A DNA stretch of 64,000 nt from contig JAXGOR010000004.1 in the NCBI GenBank assembly GCA_040767365.1, positions 134,283-198,282 of the forward strand, in the 5' to 3' direction. The notes below the pieces were generated by a model. It made no database searches. It was not told the DNA's origin and saw nothing but the letters and a program-made list of their open reading frames with translations. The translations under genes and the position numbers were made by a program. The stretch is from Clostridia bacterium (GTDB lineage: Bacteria > Bacillota > Clostridia > Saccharofermentanales > DTU023). Positions 9,081 through 13,943 of the stretch are shown here, one piece after another (the first letter of the stretch is position 1; the number at the start of each line of letters is the position of its first letter).

Positions 9081-9759
9081 TTATCGCGGCTGGTCTTCTT
9101 CGCCGCCATCACTTTCTGAAGCCGCAAGCCTGGGCAATGACGGGACCAGTCTTTTGATCACACCAGCCAGAAGGAGACTGACCAGGGGCAGAGCATAGCC
9201 CAGGGTGGCAGTAGCCCCGCCGTGGGCGATCAGGAGGTTGTAGGTCGCATGATAGGTAATGGAGGCTCCCAGGAGGCCGGCCGTACCGGCAATCTTCAGC
9301 CAGTCCCTCTGCCAGACATAGACTAGGCCGTAGCAGATCATGGCCCCGCAGACGATGTGCATGGCCCCCGTGCCAAACCCCCGGATGAGGAGGTGGGTGA
9401 GGTTCTCCGCCCCGCTTTGGGTCAGGTAGACAATATTTTCGAAGGTGGCGAAACTGACCGCGATGGTCAGGACTGAACTTGAGATTTTCTTAGATTCCGG
9501 CTCAAAGATTAAAAGATAAAAGAGAAGAGGCAGGAGTTTCATGACTTCCTCCACCACGGGAGCGATCTGGGTAGAGGCGTTCATTAAGTCCGCATCATAA
9601 AGGCGGGCGAAGTAGGTATTGATATAGGCCGAAAGAAGGCAGGCGCCCATGCCGGCGAAGACAAAGAAGAACCAACGGTAGGTTTTCTTGCCCATAAAGA
9701 CCATGGCAATGAGAAGGGGGGCCGAGACGCAGACAAAGATGTTTTCAACATAGGTCACG
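9081..9759 (-). CDS. PrsW-family intramembrane metalloprotease (candidate site-1 protease for an anti-sigma factor)
   Basis: Track ORF 9081..9878 trimmed to GTG at 9759 (GTGA overlap with the upstream stop). The PrsW signature motifs are present: VVEEVMK (EExxK), SFATFENIVY (FxxxENxxY), RGFGTGAMHIVCG and ITYHATYN (HxxxN). The protein is polytopic. Confidence 0.65.
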
Positions 9760-10405
9760 CGGCCACCGCCTTTTTCAGGGCCGGGACCGAGGCCAGCAAG
9801 GAAAACGACAAGAGGAAGTCTATCCAGAAGTAGGGATTCGCCAAGGTCTCGCTGGTCCAGAAGCAGGAGGAGGTCCACAAAGCAAATTCCAGGACGATGA
9901 TCAGGAGTACCGCTGCATGGAAATACGCCCTGTTTCGGGCTCTTCCCTGGCCCTTCATAGCGTAGATCAAGCCCCTGAGGGCCAAGAAGGCAATGCCCAT
10001 ATTGAGGCCGACGGTCACAAGGTTGCCCAGAACTTCACCCCGGGTCATATAGAGGATGAACTGCGGGATGCAAAAAGCCGGCACCAGGAACAGGGCGGGA
10101 TGCCGGAACTTTTTTTCCTCCTTGGAGGCCAGGACCAATTCCAGGGTTAGAAGGAAGAGAGATCCGGCCACCCAGGCCAGTTCCGATACGTAAAAGACCT
10201 GGGGCACGCTGTCAAACAGGAGGATGTAGAGGGTCCAATGGAAGCTGCCCAACATGAAGGAGCCCAGGTAACAGGCCAGGAGGTAGACCGTCTGCTGCCG
10301 GGTCTTGTAGTAGAAGACTGCGGCGGCCAAAAAGGCCAAGAGGGTTACCACGGATTGAATCAGGTTATCGAGGAGTTCGACCATGGTCTCTGTCCTCTTC
10401 TCCAT
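9755..10405 (-). CDS. polytopic membrane protein of unknown function (216 aa)
   Basis: The track ORF is strongly hydrophobic and multi-pass. It is co-directional with its neighbours and overlaps them. The start is uncertain (alternative MVELLDNL at 10384). I recognise no family. Confidence 0.5.
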   Translation of the reverse strand: MEKRTETMVELLDNLIQSVVTLLAFLAAAVFYYKTRQQTVYLLACYLGSFMLGSFHWTLYILLFDSVPQVFYVSELAWVAGSLFLLTLELVLASKEEKKFRHPALFLVPAFCIPQFILYMTRGEVLGNLVTVGLNMGIAFLALRGLIYAMKGQGRARNRAYFHAAVLLIIVLEFALWTSSCFWTSETLANPYFWIDFLLSFSLLASVPALKKAVAA

Positions 10406-10718
10406 AACTCCTTATTTTGATGCGGTAAAAGAGAATGGTGACGGCAACACCGAGCGCGAAGGCCAATAGGCCGATCAAAATACAGCCCAGGTAGGGGCTG
10501 CCGTCGAAGATGCTGGCGGCCGCCCCCGGCGGGGTATAGTCGGTATCCAAAGAAGCGGCAAGCAGGGAGGGGATGTAGAAGGACAGGCCCAGGATCACCA
10601 GGAAGCTTGCGGCCAGGGCAGACGCAAGGATAATGCGGGAACGCCGAATGCTTCTTCGGTCCTCGATTTCTATAACCCTTCGGTTAACAGCAGCCAGTCT
10701 TTCTTCAGTAGTTCGCAT
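10365..10718 (-). CDS. 117-aa two-TM membrane protein in anti-sigma position (putative anti-sigma factor)
   Basis: Track ORF 10365..10826 trimmed to ATG at 10718 (MRTTEERLAAVNRRVIEIEDRRSIRRSR...). A GAAGGAG RBS lies inside the sigma gene's 3' end, giving a 14-nt overlap. It has a short charged N-terminus and two TM segments, and no zinc anti-sigma HxxxCxxC motif. Confidence 0.5.
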   Translation of the reverse strand: MRTTEERLAAVNRRVIEIEDRRSIRRSRIILASALAASFLVILGLSFYIPSLLAASLDTDYTPPGAAASIFDGSPYLGCILIGLLAFALGVAVTILFYRIKIRSYGEEDRDHGRTPR

Positions 10719-11259
10719 GGCTGACTCCTTCTTCTTCCAGACGTTTGCGCAAGGATTTCCTCCCCCGATAGACCAGGTCTGAAAGCTGTTTTTCACTTTT
10801 TTCCATGACTTCAGCGGCCTCGGCATGACTCAGATTTTCAAAATACACCAGATAAAGGGCCTGACGGTACTCCGGCTTCAGACGTTCCATGCAGAGATTA
10901 ACCAAGGCGTTCTGTTCATTCAATAAGGCCGGACCGTCCGCATAAGAATCTCCTTGGGGCTCAACTGCCATTTCATCAAGGCTCAGGCACTGGCGCAGTT
11001 TATGGCGGGCTAAAAAACGTAAGGCCCCATGCCAGGCGGATTTATAGATGTAGGCCTTGAATCCTCCGGGACGGATACGGGGTTTTTTAACCGCAAGATA
11101 GGCGAAGACATCGATCATCAAGTCTTCTGCGTCGTGGATGTCTTGGATATGGCGGTGAATGTAGAAGGTCAGCCGTGTACCGTAACGCTCGATCAACTCG
11201 CTTAAGCCGTCTTCATTTCCTTCCAGATATGCGCGATAGAGGGTTTCGTCGTCCGGCAC
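10705..11259 (-). CDS. RNA polymerase sigma-70 family factor, ECF subfamily
   Basis: Track ORF of 184 aa. Region 2-like: DAEDLMIDVFAYLAVKKP...AYIYKSAWHGALRFL. Region 4-like: PEYRQALYLVYFENLSHAEAAEVMEKSEKQLSDLVYRGRKSLRKRLE. Confidence 0.85.
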   Translation of the reverse strand: MPDDETLYRAYLEGNEDGLSELIERYGTRLTFYIHRHIQDIHDAEDLMIDVFAYLAVKKPRIRPGGFKAYIYKSAWHGALRFLARHKLRQCLSLDEMAVEPQGDSYADGPALLNEQNALVNLCMERLKPEYRQALYLVYFENLSHAEAAEVMEKSEKQLSDLVYRGRKSLRKRLEEEGVSHANY

Positions 11260-11297: not shown

Positions 11298-11326
11298 ATT
11301 AAACACTGAAGAGGGGTGGGGTTCAA
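11298..11326 (-). promoter_or_regulatory. candidate sigma-70-type promoter of the ECF sigma operon
   Basis: On the minus strand: TTGAAC (11326-11321), a 17-nt spacer, then TTTAAT (11303-11298), about 40 nt upstream of the GTG start. Confidence 0.3.
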
Positions 11327-11720
11327 GCTAGGGGTGGGGGAATATGAGGTTTTGGCGAGTAAAGTCATTGGTTGGGGGTTGGTGGAGAATAGGTTGGGTG
11401 TCGAACGTAAAAACAGTTTGAGGATAAACTGGACGTCATAAGTGCTTGGCACCGATGTAAGAAAAGAGCATGACGTTAATGACCTTAACCGTGTCCAACA
11501 TTTCGTCCGCACCCCTAAGTACCGATACTTGGGCGTTCTTTATTAATGTGTTACCTGAATTATCTCCATTTTTGCTGTCTGCGTGAGTTTTTAGTATCAA
11601 AATAGTATCAATTCTTGGGAATGAGCATCCGATCGAAGTTAGAAACCGTTCAATTGAATCCGAACTCAAGATCCTTCTTCCGGTATTCACTGTTGGTATA
11701 CGCTAGCCATGTTTGTTCCT

Positions 11721-11745
11721 CAACAAAAACCGCCCGGAGGCGGTT
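11721..11745 (-). terminator. Rho-independent terminator downstream of the Panacea TA pair
   Basis: Stem AACCGCC / GGCGGTT with loop CGGA (11728-11745), followed on the minus strand by TTTTTGTTG. Confidence 0.5.
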
Positions 11746-11778
11746 GGTGATTAGGTTGTGTTGCTTTAATCTTGCTAG

Positions 11779-12245
11779 CTATTCTCGCAAGGAAGGGCAT
11801 ATTCCATGGTCAAAATCGTTCCAGACAAAGTAGAATACACCGCCGCGAACAATACCCCACCATCTACACCTGCTATTGATCCGAAGTGAGTAAAGCTCAT
11901 CTTCAAACACTTGTATCTCTGGTAGCCTTTTCTGAGCATCTCGTGATAATTCATCAATGGGTATTGGATGGTTGCGCGTGCCCTGTCCTTTCCCCGAAAA
12001 TGCACTTAAAATGTCTTTCCACTGCTGTCTTTGTAATCAATCAGCTTATTTAGAAAGTTTGCATCAATCGTTTTTTCTGTAATTGCCCATCGGCTATGCT
12101 CTGAGTCAATAAATTGAAAGCACCATGACGGCCTCATCTCCCAAAACGCATCTGGATTAATTCCTGCTTCCGTCTTAGGGCTACGCTTAGGGTCAACTCT
12201 GGAAGAATGCCTGGGTTTTTTCTTCTTGCGTCTTCGTCTTCCCAT
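11779..12245 (-). pseudogene. candidate toxin partner of the Panacea-domain antitoxin, unknown family, interrupted by a 1-nt frameshift
   Basis: Track ORF 12006..12245 (…WEMRPSWCFQFIDSEHSRWAITEKTIDANFLNKLIDY…) stops at TAA 12006-12008. A different frame, with no Met and so untracked, continues …WKDILSAFSGKGQGTRNHPIPIDELSRDAQKRLPEIQVFEDELYSLRINSRCRWWGIVRGGVFYFVWNDFDHGICPSLRE to TAG at 11779-11781. The total span is 467 nt (3n+2). The frameshift maps to 12018-12035. Confidence 0.55.
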
Positions 12246-12250
12246 AACAG

Positions 12251-12688
12251 TTAAATACTATGGTAGTACTCACGCATTACTTCTTTATCAATAATGTTTC
12301 TGCACAATTCACCTGGCTTGCAATCACCACGAGTTTCCCTCCACGGACGTTCCATGTGCGTAAGTTCGCTCAACCAGTGCGGATTTCTACGACCATAATA
12401 ATCAAGAACTTCATCGATATCGCTCTTCTGCTCATCGGTCAAAGCATCGCCCGTAGTTACGTCATGAAGGAAACCTTCATTGACTACGAACAAACCTCTG
12501 TGGTGACGAAAAAGCACAGAACTAACGGGACCGTTCGCCCACGCTTCAAAATCTTCCTCAAAAAGGGGTTCGTCATTCCAGACCAGCGCCCACGCTTGGC
12601 TATAATAACAAAGCTTTTGAAGCTTCATTGTTGTTACACGACCTTGTTCGTCCACAATGTATCGTGCCACATCTAAAATGCTTGCCAC
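12251..12688 (-). CDS. Panacea-domain (DUF4065, SocA/GepA-like) antitoxin
   Basis: Track ORF of 145 aa: MASILDVARYIV...TTMKLQKLCYYSQAWALVWNDEPLFEEDFEAWANGPV, the hallmark of the family. It has a GTG start with a GGAGGAG RBS. Confidence 0.8.
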   Translation of the reverse strand: MASILDVARYIVDEQGRVTTMKLQKLCYYSQAWALVWNDEPLFEEDFEAWANGPVSSVLFRHHRGLFVVNEGFLHDVTTGDALTDEQKSDIDEVLDYYGRRNPHWLSELTHMERPWRETRGDCKPGELCRNIIDKEVMREYYHSI

Positions 12689-12721
12689 GGCGATCTCCTC
12701 CCCTCAATATTGCTCCGCTCT

Positions 12722-12756
12722 CATATAAATTATATGTGTGTGTCATGGTCCGTCAA
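12722..12756 (-). promoter_or_regulatory. near-consensus promoter with overlapping palindromic operator upstream of the Panacea antitoxin gene
   Basis: On the minus strand: TTGACG (12756-12751), a 16-nt spacer, then TATAAT (12734-12729). The 15-nt palindrome CATATAAATTATATG (12722-12736) overlaps the -10 box. Confidence 0.5.
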
Positions 12757-13043
12757 GGTTAACTGAAGCGTACTTCACCCCCAAACAAAAAGACGGCATC
12801 GCTACCGCCTTCTTCGTCTCTTTCCTATCTAATGATTTGCCTCCCAACGCTGACTGGACCCTACAACACCTCTTTTAAGGAGGATAATCTTCGACGACCC
12901 CCAAATGCGTCTTGAGCGCTTTTGTATTGTTCTAATGTTATACCTATTTGGGGGGATCACTTCGTGCCTGTCTTCAGCCTGAAAAGATTCTGACTAATAT
13001 TTGGGGGTGGCGTCCACTCCTGGTTGATGCTTTGAAATGACAG

Positions 13044-13288
13044 CTATGGCAAAAGGTCAAAATATTCTGGTCTTGCCTTCATTGAATGAATAATCAGTTC
13101 GTCTCCACTGTCGACAATCAAGACAACCAGCTCAAGCAATCTCCCTGACATATCAAAGCCAAGCCGCAGTTCTCGCTGCCGCTTCTCCCCATTCAGTGGC
13201 TCGATCCATAGGGGCCAATTCGCGGCGTACAGGCTATCTTCTGAGTCTATGCCAAGCTTTAATCAGAAGGATGGACCGCCAGACTCAT
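13044..13288 (-). pseudogene. small toxin gene partnered with the RHH antitoxin, interrupted by a 1-nt frameshift
   Basis: ATG at 13288 overlaps the antitoxin stop (ATGA). The frame reads MSLAVHPSD then TAA (13259-13261). The adjacent frame, open from 13262, reads LKLGIDSEDSLYAANWPLWIEPLNGEKRQRELRLGFDMSGRLLELVVLIVDSGDELIIHSMKARPEYFDLLP and stops at 13044-13046. The span is 245 nt (3n+2). The pattern (KHGI..ED...E.R..LG.D..GRLLE.VV...IHAM.ARP) recalls small BrnT/DUF497-like toxins. Confidence 0.5.
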
Positions 13289-13533
13289 GTGAATAATTGC
13301 CGCCGGATAAATTCGGACCGTGTTAGCTTATCTTCTGCTGCCCTTTGATCCAGGATTTCAATTTCTTGCGGAGTAACCCTAATGGTAATCACTCGACCTG
13401 GCTCAGCACCCCTCCCAGGGCGACCCCGTCCGCGCTTTTTTAGAGCCTGTACATCATAACCCCGCTCAGCTTCGTTCACCCATTGGGCGATTTGTTCATC
13501 TGTAATTGTTTTTTCATTTGTTTCCTTATCCAT
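13285..13533 (-). CDS. ribbon-helix-helix (CopG/ParD-like) antitoxin
   Basis: Track ORF 13285..13602 trimmed to MDKETNEKTITDEQIAQWVNEAERGYDVQALKKRGRGRPGRG...VITIRVTPQEIEILDQRAAEDKLTRSEFIRRQL. The C-terminus is an RHH fold. Confidence 0.7.
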   Translation of the reverse strand: MDKETNEKTITDEQIAQWVNEAERGYDVQALKKRGRGRPGRGAEPGRVITIRVTPQEIEILDQRAAEDKLTRSEFIRRQLFT

Positions 13534-13837
13534 GGCATTATTGTAATACGATAATAAACGACTGTAAAAGAGTAATTCATTCCATATCAAGGGGTACCCC
13601 ATAACACTCCGGTTTTTATTCTCAATAATGGGGTTTCAGTCATCATAAACTCACTTGTTTCCGGGTTTCGGATATCAGAAAGGTCACCTGCCTTTGTCTG
13701 GTGAGACTACAGGCGCTCTTTCAAATATCCTTTAAGTCTGGTGACTAATTCAATCCAGACGCAATAATTTGGCCCACTTTCCCGGATCCATCATAAAAAC
13801 CGGCTGATGGTCGGGCTTTTTCTAAGAGAAAGCAAAA

Positions 13838-13863
13838 GCCCTGCAACATCATCGTTGCAGGGC
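13838..13863. terminator. hairpin terminator just 3' of tRNA-Ala
   Basis: GCCCTGCAAC / GTTGCAGGGC stem with loop ATCATC. It is T-rich on both sides (CTTTTGCTTTC on the minus strand, CCTTTT on the plus strand). Confidence 0.5.
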
Positions 13864-13867
13864 CTTT

Positions 13868-13943
<76 letters not shown>

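What the first reader, a model, noticed from the sequence alone, without database searches (positions are those of the whole stretch)
11779..12688. Panacea-domain antitoxin paired with a frameshifted toxin candidate of unrecognised family
An intact DUF4065/Panacea (SocA-like) antitoxin gene is followed 5 nt downstream by a gene whose two halves lie in different frames. The N-half has a poly-basic N-terminus and reads ...WCFQFIDSEHSRWAI...FLNKLIDY. The C-half reads WKDILSAFSGKGQGTRNHPIPIDELSRDAQKRLP...LYSLRINSRCRWWGIVRGGVFYFVWNDFDHGICPS and has no Met, so it is invisible in the ORF track. Panacea antitoxins are known to neutralise many unrelated toxin domains, so the partner is a good candidate for an uncharacterised toxin. 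Here it appears inactivated while the antitoxin is kept.
Basis: partly seen in the sequence, partly recalled or inferred. Interest (0 to 1): 0.55.

Follow-up and report, generated by a model that had tools for sequence, protein, structure and literature searches.

The report
Broken toxin beside intact Panacea antitoxin
This is an ordinary two-gene toxin-antitoxin module of an already described kind (Panacea antitoxin plus "T1" toxin) in which a real one-base deletion, shared by several wild relatives, has knocked out the toxin while the antitoxin stays intact.

Summary
On the minus strand an intact Panacea/DUF4065 antitoxin gene (12688..12251) is followed 5 nt later by a toxin gene split by a frameshift (12245..12006, then 12036..11779). 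A near-identical metagenome contig encodes the unbroken 155-aa protein; the window lacks one G between 12032 and 12033.

The deletion is not an assembly error. Four other assemblies carry it, six related contigs are intact, and PanA is intact in all 13.

The partner has no Pfam model, but it is not an unknown family. HMMER finds 1,223 cluster representatives, nearly all single ~150-aa proteins. In 60 of 66 species-representative genomes a PanA gene lies directly upstream. The family profile matches the Salmonella phage Emek toxin, which Kurata et al. 2022 placed in PanT cluster T1 (217 rows in the stored part of Dataset S1, predicted mRNase, one member toxic, two not).

Members also weakly but consistently match the C-terminal effector domain of Menshen NsnC (BECR/YafQ-like, H-R-H triad). 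They keep an H93-R128-H147 triad. Both window ORFs lack a complete triad.

Verdict: a decayed member of a known TA kind, low interest. Two modest extras are the natural null/intact polymorphism and the T1-NsnC domain link.

The parts
12729..12756 (-). Promoter-like site of the panAT operon: -35 TTGACG (12756..12751), 16-nt spacer, -10 TATAAT (12734..12729). A 7-1-7 palindrome CATATAA-A-TTATATG (12722..12736) overlaps the -10 box.
   Evidence: Consensus scan, 11 of 12 matches. Palindrome located by string search. Function not tested.
12251..12688 (-). panA: intact standalone Panacea (DUF4065/SocA-like) antitoxin, 145 aa, GTG start preceded by GGGGAGGAG.
   Evidence: PF13274 E=1.7e-16, above the gathering score. 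phrog_1281 E=2e-33. Identical or 4-aa-variant intact copies in all 13 related sequences.
12006..12245 (-). Toxin 5' fragment: codons 1-70 of the PanT-T1 gene (disordered polybasic N-terminus, W41/D47/W53 motif) plus 8 out-of-frame codons and a TAA stop. It starts 5 nt after the panA stop.
   Evidence: ORF list and translation. Alignment to the intact P0001.
12032..12033 (-). Site of the 1-nt deletion (a G on the coding strand). It shifts codon 71 onward into the -1 frame.
   Evidence: DNA alignments A1 and A6. The same deletion is in L077, L080, L082 and L086; it is absent in L001, L078, L079, L081, L083 and L084.
11779..12036 (-). Toxin 3' part, now out of frame and without a usable start. 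It encodes residues 72-155, including W76 and the H93, R128, H147 triad (NHPI...RCRWWG...DFDHGICPS).
   Evidence: Translation. Family alignments A2 and A3 and residue counts. Only one internal GTG at 11910, with no SD.
11718..11745 (-). Intrinsic-terminator-like hairpin AACCGCCTCCGGGCGGTT followed by TTTGTT, 34 nt after the toxin stop codon.
   Evidence: Terminator scan.

Best explanation
This is a bicistronic type II PanAT toxin-antitoxin module of the 'T1' kind. It sits in a small low-GC islet next to a tRNA-Ala gene in an uncultured Clostridia-like Bacillota chromosome. In the ancestral state one promoter drives panA and, 5 nt downstream and probably translationally coupled, a 155-aa toxin. 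That toxin has a disordered polybasic N-terminus and one globular domain related to the BECR/RelE-YafQ-like RNase effector of Menshen NsnC, with a conserved His-Arg-His triad. PanA would bind and neutralise it directly, and loss of PanA would free the RNase to arrest translation. In this genome a single-base deletion at codon 71 truncates the toxin to a 79-aa fragment lacking all three triad residues, so the toxin is dead and panA survives as an orphan antitoxin. Shown here: the gene anatomy, the deletion, its presence in independent assemblies, family membership, the conserved PanA-toxin pairing and the conserved triad. Inferred: RNase activity, direct neutralisation, translational coupling, and any role of the orphan PanA.
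Against: No Foldseek hit is significant (best E=0.32), and the trimmed-domain model gave a mixed list. hhalign against single YafQ and YoeB sequences is not significant. No Pfam RelE, HigB or ParE model is matched; only 2 of 134 members hit HigB-like at E=0.069. Matches to NsnC and MAG6450_fam are below curated cutoffs for this protein itself (E=0.011 and 0.06). Of the three T1 members tested by Kurata et al., two were non-toxic and the toxic one was not rescued by its PanA in E. coli. No T1 pair has therefore been validated as a complete TA, and RNase activity has never been shown. No expression data exist for this locus.
Confidence: 0.8

Rival explanations
1. The frameshift is a sequencing or assembly artefact and the locus is simply an intact TA pair.
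For: A single-base indel is the commonest assembly error, and no reads for the window genome are available.
Against: The same deletion occurs in four other assemblies: SRR24100346, SRR29287884, SRR29287885 and ERZ25038380. Sister contigs, including one numbered in the same ENA accession series (ERZ25038406), are intact. The deletion is perfectly linked to a synonymous A/G SNP 43 nt upstream. The missing G is not in a homopolymer run.
Confidence: 0.03
2. The gene is still expressed full-length through programmed -1 ribosomal frameshifting or transcriptional slippage, so the toxin is made at a low, regulated level.
For: The required shift is -1. A GGA_AAG (A_AAG-type) slippery motif lies between the deletion and the TAA stop (sequence).
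Against: Any product shifted at that site would read ...IDYKDSSGKDILSAF. It would lose the near-invariant E72 and the invariant W76. Intact in-frame alleles exist in sister strains, and the family-wide alignments and matches show uninterrupted single proteins of about 150 aa. There is no A/T run for transcriptional slippage. No stimulatory structure was looked for.
Confidence: 0.03
3. The two halves are, or have become, separate functional genes (a split toxin, or an N-terminal peptide with its own role such as a PanA-binding decoy).
For: The 79-aa N-fragment keeps its start, its coupling to panA and the conserved W41/D47/W53 segment. The deletion allele is frequent (5 of 11 informative sequences) and sits on several haplotypes.
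Against: Homologs are single proteins of about 150 aa. The C-half has no start with an SD. Neither piece has a complete triad. The allele frequency comes from a handful of metagenome contigs and is equally compatible with neutral drift.
Confidence: 0.05
4. The ancestral T1 protein is not an RNase toxin. It acts on another target (for example gyrase, as ParE does) or is a non-toxic PanA partner or accessory protein.
For: Two of three T1 members tested were not toxic in E. coli, and the toxic one was not neutralised. All structural and profile links to RelE-like RNases are sub-significant. RelE/ParE-fold proteins can have non-RNase activities (PMC10440598).
Against: The non-toxic Emek variant lacks the R128 and H147 equivalents, which fits these residues being needed for toxicity. 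H, R and H are nearly invariant elsewhere. There is a consistent HMM link to a defence effector domain assigned to BECR RNases. The PanA-toxin pairing is strictly conserved.
Confidence: 0.2

Closest known systems
PanAT systems, PanT cluster T1 (Kurata et al. 2022, PNAS, PMC8832971)
   Same: Standalone Panacea antitoxin first, then a toxin of about 150 aa within a few nt. The family profile matches the T1 member from Salmonella phage Emek. Taxonomic spread is similar, including Scytonema and a Mycoplasma link via MAG6450_fam. Annotated 'hypothetical protein'.
   Different: This copy is frameshifted at codon 71. T1 membership was checked through one T1 protein only (Emek), because the other accessions could not be fetched.
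Menshen NsnC C-terminal effector domain PB-BECR1 (PMC12065111)
   Same: 48 of 81 family members match the C-terminal about 100 positions of the PADLOC NsnC model. Both carry a His-Arg-His triad, and both are predicted RNase effectors.
   Different: NsnC fuses the domain to an inactive-PIN domain and works with the NsnA (ParB-DUF262) and NsnB (ABC ATPase) proteins. Here the domain stands alone behind a polybasic tail and is paired with PanA. The triad correspondence is inferred, because no NsnC sequence was aligned residue by residue.
RelE/YafQ/HigB/YoeB type II mRNA interferases
   Same: Small alpha/beta toxin with a C-terminal three-strand meander of the type [FY]S-L-R-[LI]...R-[IL]-[YW]-G...H, encoded downstream of its antitoxin. 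These dominate the Foldseek list.
   Different: No significant sequence or structure match. There is an extra N-terminal segment of about 60 aa. The antitoxin is Panacea, not RelB, DinJ, HigA or YefM.
SocAB (Caulobacter), the founding Panacea/SocA system
   Same: The antitoxin has the SocA_Panacea domain.
   Different: SocA is a ClpXP adaptor for the SocB toxin, which blocks the beta sliding clamp (type VI). The toxin here is unrelated to SocB. The NCBIfam SocA equivalog score is 49 bits against a cutoff of 190.
NCBIfam NF046006 MAG6450 family protein
   Same: 78 of 81 family members give weak hits to it, best E=1.2e-7, over the C-terminal half.
   Different: The window protein scores 13.9 bits against a cutoff of 40. 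That family is itself uncharacterised.

Membership tests
Panacea antitoxin (PanA; Pfam PF13274 SocA_Panacea) | Match to the Panacea/DUF4065 HMM above the gathering score | tested here: met
   61.6 bits against a cutoff of 25.7, E=1.7e-16, residues 23-116.
PanAT two-gene TA locus (criteria of Kurata et al. 2022) | [quoted passage not shown] | tested here: met
   5-nt gap in the window. PanA lies directly upstream in 60 of 66 species-representative loci and in 6 of 6 looked-up contexts.
PanT cluster T1 | Homology to proteins that Kurata et al. assigned to T1 | tested here: met
   Family HMM A2 against Emek orf161 (YP_006560566.1, T1): 41.9 bits, HMM 1-149, E=4e-15 for one target. Only this one T1 member could be checked.
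PanAT / type II TA | Toxin inhibits growth, and the cognate antitoxin neutralises it by direct binding | not testable with these tools
   Literature only: one T1 member was toxic but not rescued, and two were non-toxic.
PanAT / type II TA (this copy) | Intact toxin reading frame | tested here: not met
   A 1-nt deletion between 12032 and 12033 leaves a 79-aa truncated product. The same lesion is seen in four other assemblies.
BECR / RelE-ParE superfamily RNase toxin | [quoted passage not shown] | tested here: inconclusive
   The AF2 model (pLDDT 87.9) has H102-110 plus strands 93-96, 117-122, 128-134 and 137-144. The Foldseek top list is mostly YoeB, RelE, HigB and YafQ, but the best E is 0.32 and TM (target) is 0.42-0.52. 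The trimmed model was not informative.
BECR / RelE-ParE superfamily RNase toxin | Sequence-profile match to a recognised member family | tested here: inconclusive
   PADLOC NsnC C-terminal domain is hit by 48 of 81 relatives, best E=4.4e-8, but only E=0.011 for this protein. Pfam HigB-like is hit by just 2 of 134 at E=0.069. hhalign against YafQ and YoeB is not significant.
BECR / RelE-ParE superfamily RNase toxin | Conserved catalytic residues (H-R-H as in NsnC-C; H-D-H in YafQ) | tested here: met
   H93, R128 and H147 are all present in 129 of 134 and 79 of 81 relatives and in the ancestral allele P0001. Equivalence to the NsnC triad is inferred from the paper, not aligned. Neither ORF of the window copy retains the full triad.
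NCBIfam MAG6450_fam (NF046006) | Score above the curated cutoff | tested here: not met
   13.2-13.9 bits against a cutoff of 40. This is a remote relationship only.
SocA (type VI antitoxin, NF047745 equivalog) | Score above the equivalog cutoff | tested here: not met
   49.3 bits against a cutoff of 190. It shares the domain but is not a SocA orthologue.

The most novel reading that the evidence does not exclude
The toxin-null allele is not just decay. It may be kept at intermediate frequency in this species (5 of 11 informative contigs, on several recombinant haplotypes, with panA always intact) because orphan PanA, perhaps together with the retained 79-aa N-terminal toxin fragment, gives an advantage. 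Possible advantages include immunity against T1 toxins brought in by phages or other mobile elements (anti-addiction), or relief from self-intoxication. A separate point: the largest Panacea-associated toxin cluster and the main Menshen effector would share one RNase domain, a link I did not find stated in the papers searched.
Probability: 0.1. Interest if true: 0.5.

Novelty: new member of a known kind. Interest (0 to 1): 0.22.

Why it matters
Little changes for the field. Panacea antitoxins with many toxin partners are well described, and decayed toxins beside surviving antitoxins are common.

Three minor points are useful:
- **Annotation:** the approximately 150-aa T1 partner is still labelled 'hypothetical protein' by PGAP and has no Pfam model, despite more than 1,200 50%-identity clusters. 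It is a clear candidate for a new family model.
- **A testable hypothesis:** the conserved H-R-H triad, and its absence in the phage Emek/E. coli variant reported as non-toxic, gives a direct mutational test for the toxicity of T1 proteins. No T1 pair has yet been validated as a complete TA.
- **A natural experiment:** intact and null alleles of the same locus co-occur in wild populations. This offers a way to ask whether chromosomal TA toxins are under selection.

Tried and rejected
- **Pfam, NCBIfam, PDB sequence and PDB profile searches** with the repaired toxin or the family alignment gave no usable hit.
The exhaustive HMMER search was needed to see the family.
- **Foldseek** of the full model against PDB, of a trimmed C-half model against PDB and of the full model against BFVD gave nothing significant. 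The trimmed model was worse than the full one.
- **GTDB genome scans:** the scan with P0001 found no close relative. The scan with the broad alignment failed for lack of conserved stretches. A clade-restricted alignment worked.
- **Kurata's HHpred evidence for T1:** I could not find it in the stored part of Dataset S1. The RelE, YafQ and RNase terms first appear at other clusters.
- **Other look-ups:** MAG6450 has no functional literature. The window's own CDF-transporter protein is not on record in the contig index. Rfam found only the tRNA.
- **Explanations rejected:** programmed frameshifting, split genes and assembly error, as set out under the rival explanations.

Full report
**1. Observation**

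- An ORF at 12688..12251 (145 aa, GTG start after GGGGAGGAG) matches Pfam SocA_Panacea at 61.6 bits, E=1.7e-16, above the gathering score.
- Five nucleotides after its stop, an ATG opens a 79-aa ORF (12245..12006) that begins MGRRRRKKKKPRHSS and ends ...FLNKLIDYKDSSGKTF*.
- The -1 frame is open from 12036 to the stop at 11779. It reads LQRQQWKDILSAFSGKGQGTRNHPIPIDELSRDAQKRLPEIQVFEDELYSLRINSRCRWWGIVRGGVFYFVWNDFDHGICPSLRE*.
- A repaired 155-aa sequence finds an intact 155-aa protein, P0001, at E=3.5e-99 with 96% identity and full coverage.
- P0001 lies on a 1.9-kb syntenic metagenome contig, L001, directly after an identical PanA.
- The DNA alignment shows one missing G: window GATTAC-AAAGAC against L001 GATTACGAAAGAC.

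**2. The frameshift is real**

I looked up contigs encoding the window's exact PanA and its 90%-identity cluster relative. This gave 12 further contigs from the same chromosomal neighbourhood, with the same ECF sigma factor and PrsW genes downstream.

| Allele | Sequences |
|---|---|
| Same 1-nt deletion | window, L077 (SRR24100346), L080 (SRR29287884), L082 (ERZ25038380), L086 (SRR29287885) |
| Intact 155-aa gene | L001, L078, L079, L081, L084, and L083 as far as it extends |

- The deletion is perfectly linked to a synonymous A/G difference 43 nt upstream.
- It occurs on both PanA protein haplotypes, which differ at T119A, E127D, N131K and I132V, and on several downstream SNP backgrounds.
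- This pattern indicates one mutational origin followed by recombination. It is a segregating natural polymorphism, not an assembly error.
- The deleted G is not in a homopolymer.
- PanA is intact in all 13 sequences.
- No extra stops or indels have accumulated in the out-of-frame 3' part, so the lesion is young on the mutational clock.

**3. What the toxin is**

The protein has no hit in Pfam and only a sub-threshold NCBIfam hit, and none to PDB sequences. The family alignment gives the same result. It is nevertheless a large family.

- **Size and form.** An exhaustive phmmer search of 1.84 billion cluster representatives gave 1,223 hits at E<=1e-3 and 281 at E<=1e-10. Almost all are 145-165 aa and aligned end to end. 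The single-gene form is therefore the rule, and the 'two separate genes' refutation fails.
- **Conserved residues.** Alignments show W41, D47, W53, E72, W76, H93, A104, S120, R128, G131, W142, D144 and H147 as invariant or nearly so.
- **Predicted structure.** AlphaFold2 with an 81-sequence alignment gives pLDDT 87.9. Residues 1-30 are disordered and polybasic. They are followed by one globular alpha/beta domain ending in a three-strand antiparallel meander.

**4. Genomic association**

- In every context looked up, a SocA_Panacea gene lies immediately upstream on the same strand. The neighbourhoods are otherwise unrelated: beside HigBA and a type ISP restriction enzyme, beside DruA/SIR2 genes, or after a phage holin-amidase cassette.
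- A scan of GTDB species-representative genomes with a clade-restricted alignment returned 66 loci. They come from Proteobacteria, Binatia, Thermodesulfobacteriota, Nitrospirota, Acidobacteriota, Planctomycetota, Cyanobacteria, Spirochaetes and others.
- A jackhmmer search seeded with the window's PanA found a PanA ORF ending at the toxin start in 60 of those 66 loci.

**5. Link to the literature**

Kurata et al. 2022 (PMC8832971) defined Panacea/PanA and clustered its partners into 88 'T' clusters.

- Cluster T1 has 217 rows in the stored part of Dataset S1. It spans Firmicutes, Mollicutes, Actinobacteria, Bacteroidetes, Cyanobacteria (including Scytonema), Proteobacteria and P22-like phages.
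- Their Table S1 labels three T1 members 'mRNase':

| T1 member | Result in E. coli |
|---|---|
| C. cadaveris WP_074844970.1 | Toxic, but not neutralised by its PanA |
| E. coli MOD1 WP_077635758.1 | Not toxic |
| Salmonella phage Emek YP_006560566.1 | Not toxic |

- I fetched the Emek locus and scored its orf161 with the HMM of my family alignment. It gave 41.9 bits over HMM positions 1-149.
- The window's toxin therefore belongs to T1. It is a described, if poorly characterised, family.
- The Emek protein has A and F where the family has R128 and H147, which fits its reported lack of toxicity.
- A DNA segment 100% identical to the Emek pair occurs in E. coli strain STEC346, where it is annotated 'Panacea domain-containing protein | hypothetical protein'; matching segments, at least 99% identical in 44 of them, are in 48 of 5,426 complete E. 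coli genomes.

**6. Likely mechanism**

- Scanning the 81 relatives individually, 78 hit NCBIfam MAG6450_fam (best E=1.2e-7). 48 hit the PADLOC model of Menshen NsnC over its C-terminal positions 184-280 of 284 (best E=4.4e-8).
- The T1 family's H93-R128-H147 is complete in 129 of 134 and 79 of 81 members.
- Foldseek of the full model against PDB gives no significant hit (best E=0.32). Even so, YoeB/ParE, RelE, HigB, YafQ and HP0894 fill most of the top 40, with TM (target) 0.42-0.52.
- A trimmed-domain model, BFVD, and hhalign against single YafQ and YoeB sequences added nothing.
- My reading, at moderate confidence: the ancestral protein is a diverged BECR/RelE-like RNase, neutralised directly by a standalone Panacea domain. 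Direct neutralisation of this kind was shown for another PanT by Ernits et al. 2023 (PMC10440598).
- In the window allele, the 79-aa product stops before all three triad residues. The 3' part has no start with a Shine-Dalgarno sequence. A hypothetical -1 slip at the GGA_AAG motif before the stop would still replace E72 and the invariant W76. The toxin is therefore dead.

**7. Operon and setting**

- A promoter-like site lies 40 nt upstream of panA: TTGACG, 16 nt, TATAAT, at 12756..12729, 11 of 12 matches.
- A GC-rich hairpin with a T-tract (11745..11728) follows the toxin stop.
- The module lies in a stretch of about 2.5 kb of 43-47% GC, between an ECF sigma factor gene (51-57% GC side) and tRNA-Ala at 13868..13943 (flank 53-65% GC).
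- The same islet holds an RHH/NikA-like gene followed by a remnant of a small ORF, which sister strains have lost through a 214-bp deletion. This looks like a second, further-decayed TA-like pair.
- The neighbouring IorA protein is 85-86% identical to proteins from 'Bacillota bacterium' and 'Saccharofermentanales bacterium' MAGs. The host is therefore an uncultured Clostridia-like organism. The window comes from a 288-kb NCBI contig.

**8. Verdict**

It is wrong that the family is unrecognised.
- This is a decayed member of the known PanAT-T1 kind.
- Two things go slightly beyond the literature I could search. One is the HMM link between T1 and the Menshen NsnC effector domain, with a shared H-R-H triad. 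The other is evidence that intact and null alleles co-exist in natural populations.
- Interest is low, at about 0.2.

Noticed in passing
window 13044-13602 (minus strand): An RHH/NikA-like gene (13285..13602, Pfam RHH_1 and NikA-like) is followed by a start-less remnant ORF ending ...LGFDMSGRLLELVVLIVDSGDELIIHSMKARPEYFDLLP* (no Pfam hit). The 214 bp carrying it (13051-13265) are deleted in the sister contigs L001, L079 and L081. This looks like a second, more decayed TA-like pair in the same islet.
   Followed up: partly
window 11300-13943: A stretch of about 2.5 kb with 43-47% GC, against 51-65% in the flanks, holds both TA-like modules and abuts tRNA-Ala(GGC) at 13868..13943 (minus strand). 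No integrase was seen. It may be the relic of an integrated element.
   Followed up: partly
window 12722-12736: A perfect 7-1-7 palindrome CATATAA-A-TTATATG overlaps the -10 box of the panA promoter and is a possible operator. This PanA has no HTH domain. The window and L082 carry a 2-bp deletion beside it relative to the other strains.
   Followed up: no
window 12251-12688 versus L078-L087: There are two PanA protein haplotypes differing by four clustered C-terminal substitutions (T119A, E127D, N131K, I132V). Each is found with both intact and frameshifted toxin alleles, which implies recombination within the operon.
   Followed up: partly
L075 (Salmonella phage Emek 15152-15637) and L088 (E. 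coli STEC346): The T1 variant carried by P22-like phages and prophages, whose DNA matches 48 of 5,426 complete E. coli genomes (44 of them at 99% identity or more), has A and F in place of the family's R128 and H147. Kurata et al. reported the phage Emek protein as non-toxic. This would be a naturally disarmed toxin that is still paired with PanA.
   Followed up: partly
L038, L025, L034 (GTDB loci): Other copies of the module look decayed. PanA in L038 is split into two overlapping ORFs. The toxin matches in L025 and L034 cover only residues 1-104 and 1-121.
   Followed up: no
L052: Two PanA homologs lie within 1.3 kb upstream of one T1 toxin gene in a Rhodothermales MAG.
   Followed up: no
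window 9081-11259 (minus strand): The chromosomal side of the islet carries, in order, an ECF sigma-70 factor, a probable membrane anti-sigma protein, a multi-pass membrane protein and a PrsW-family intramembrane protease. The same order is conserved in the sister contigs.
   Followed up: no
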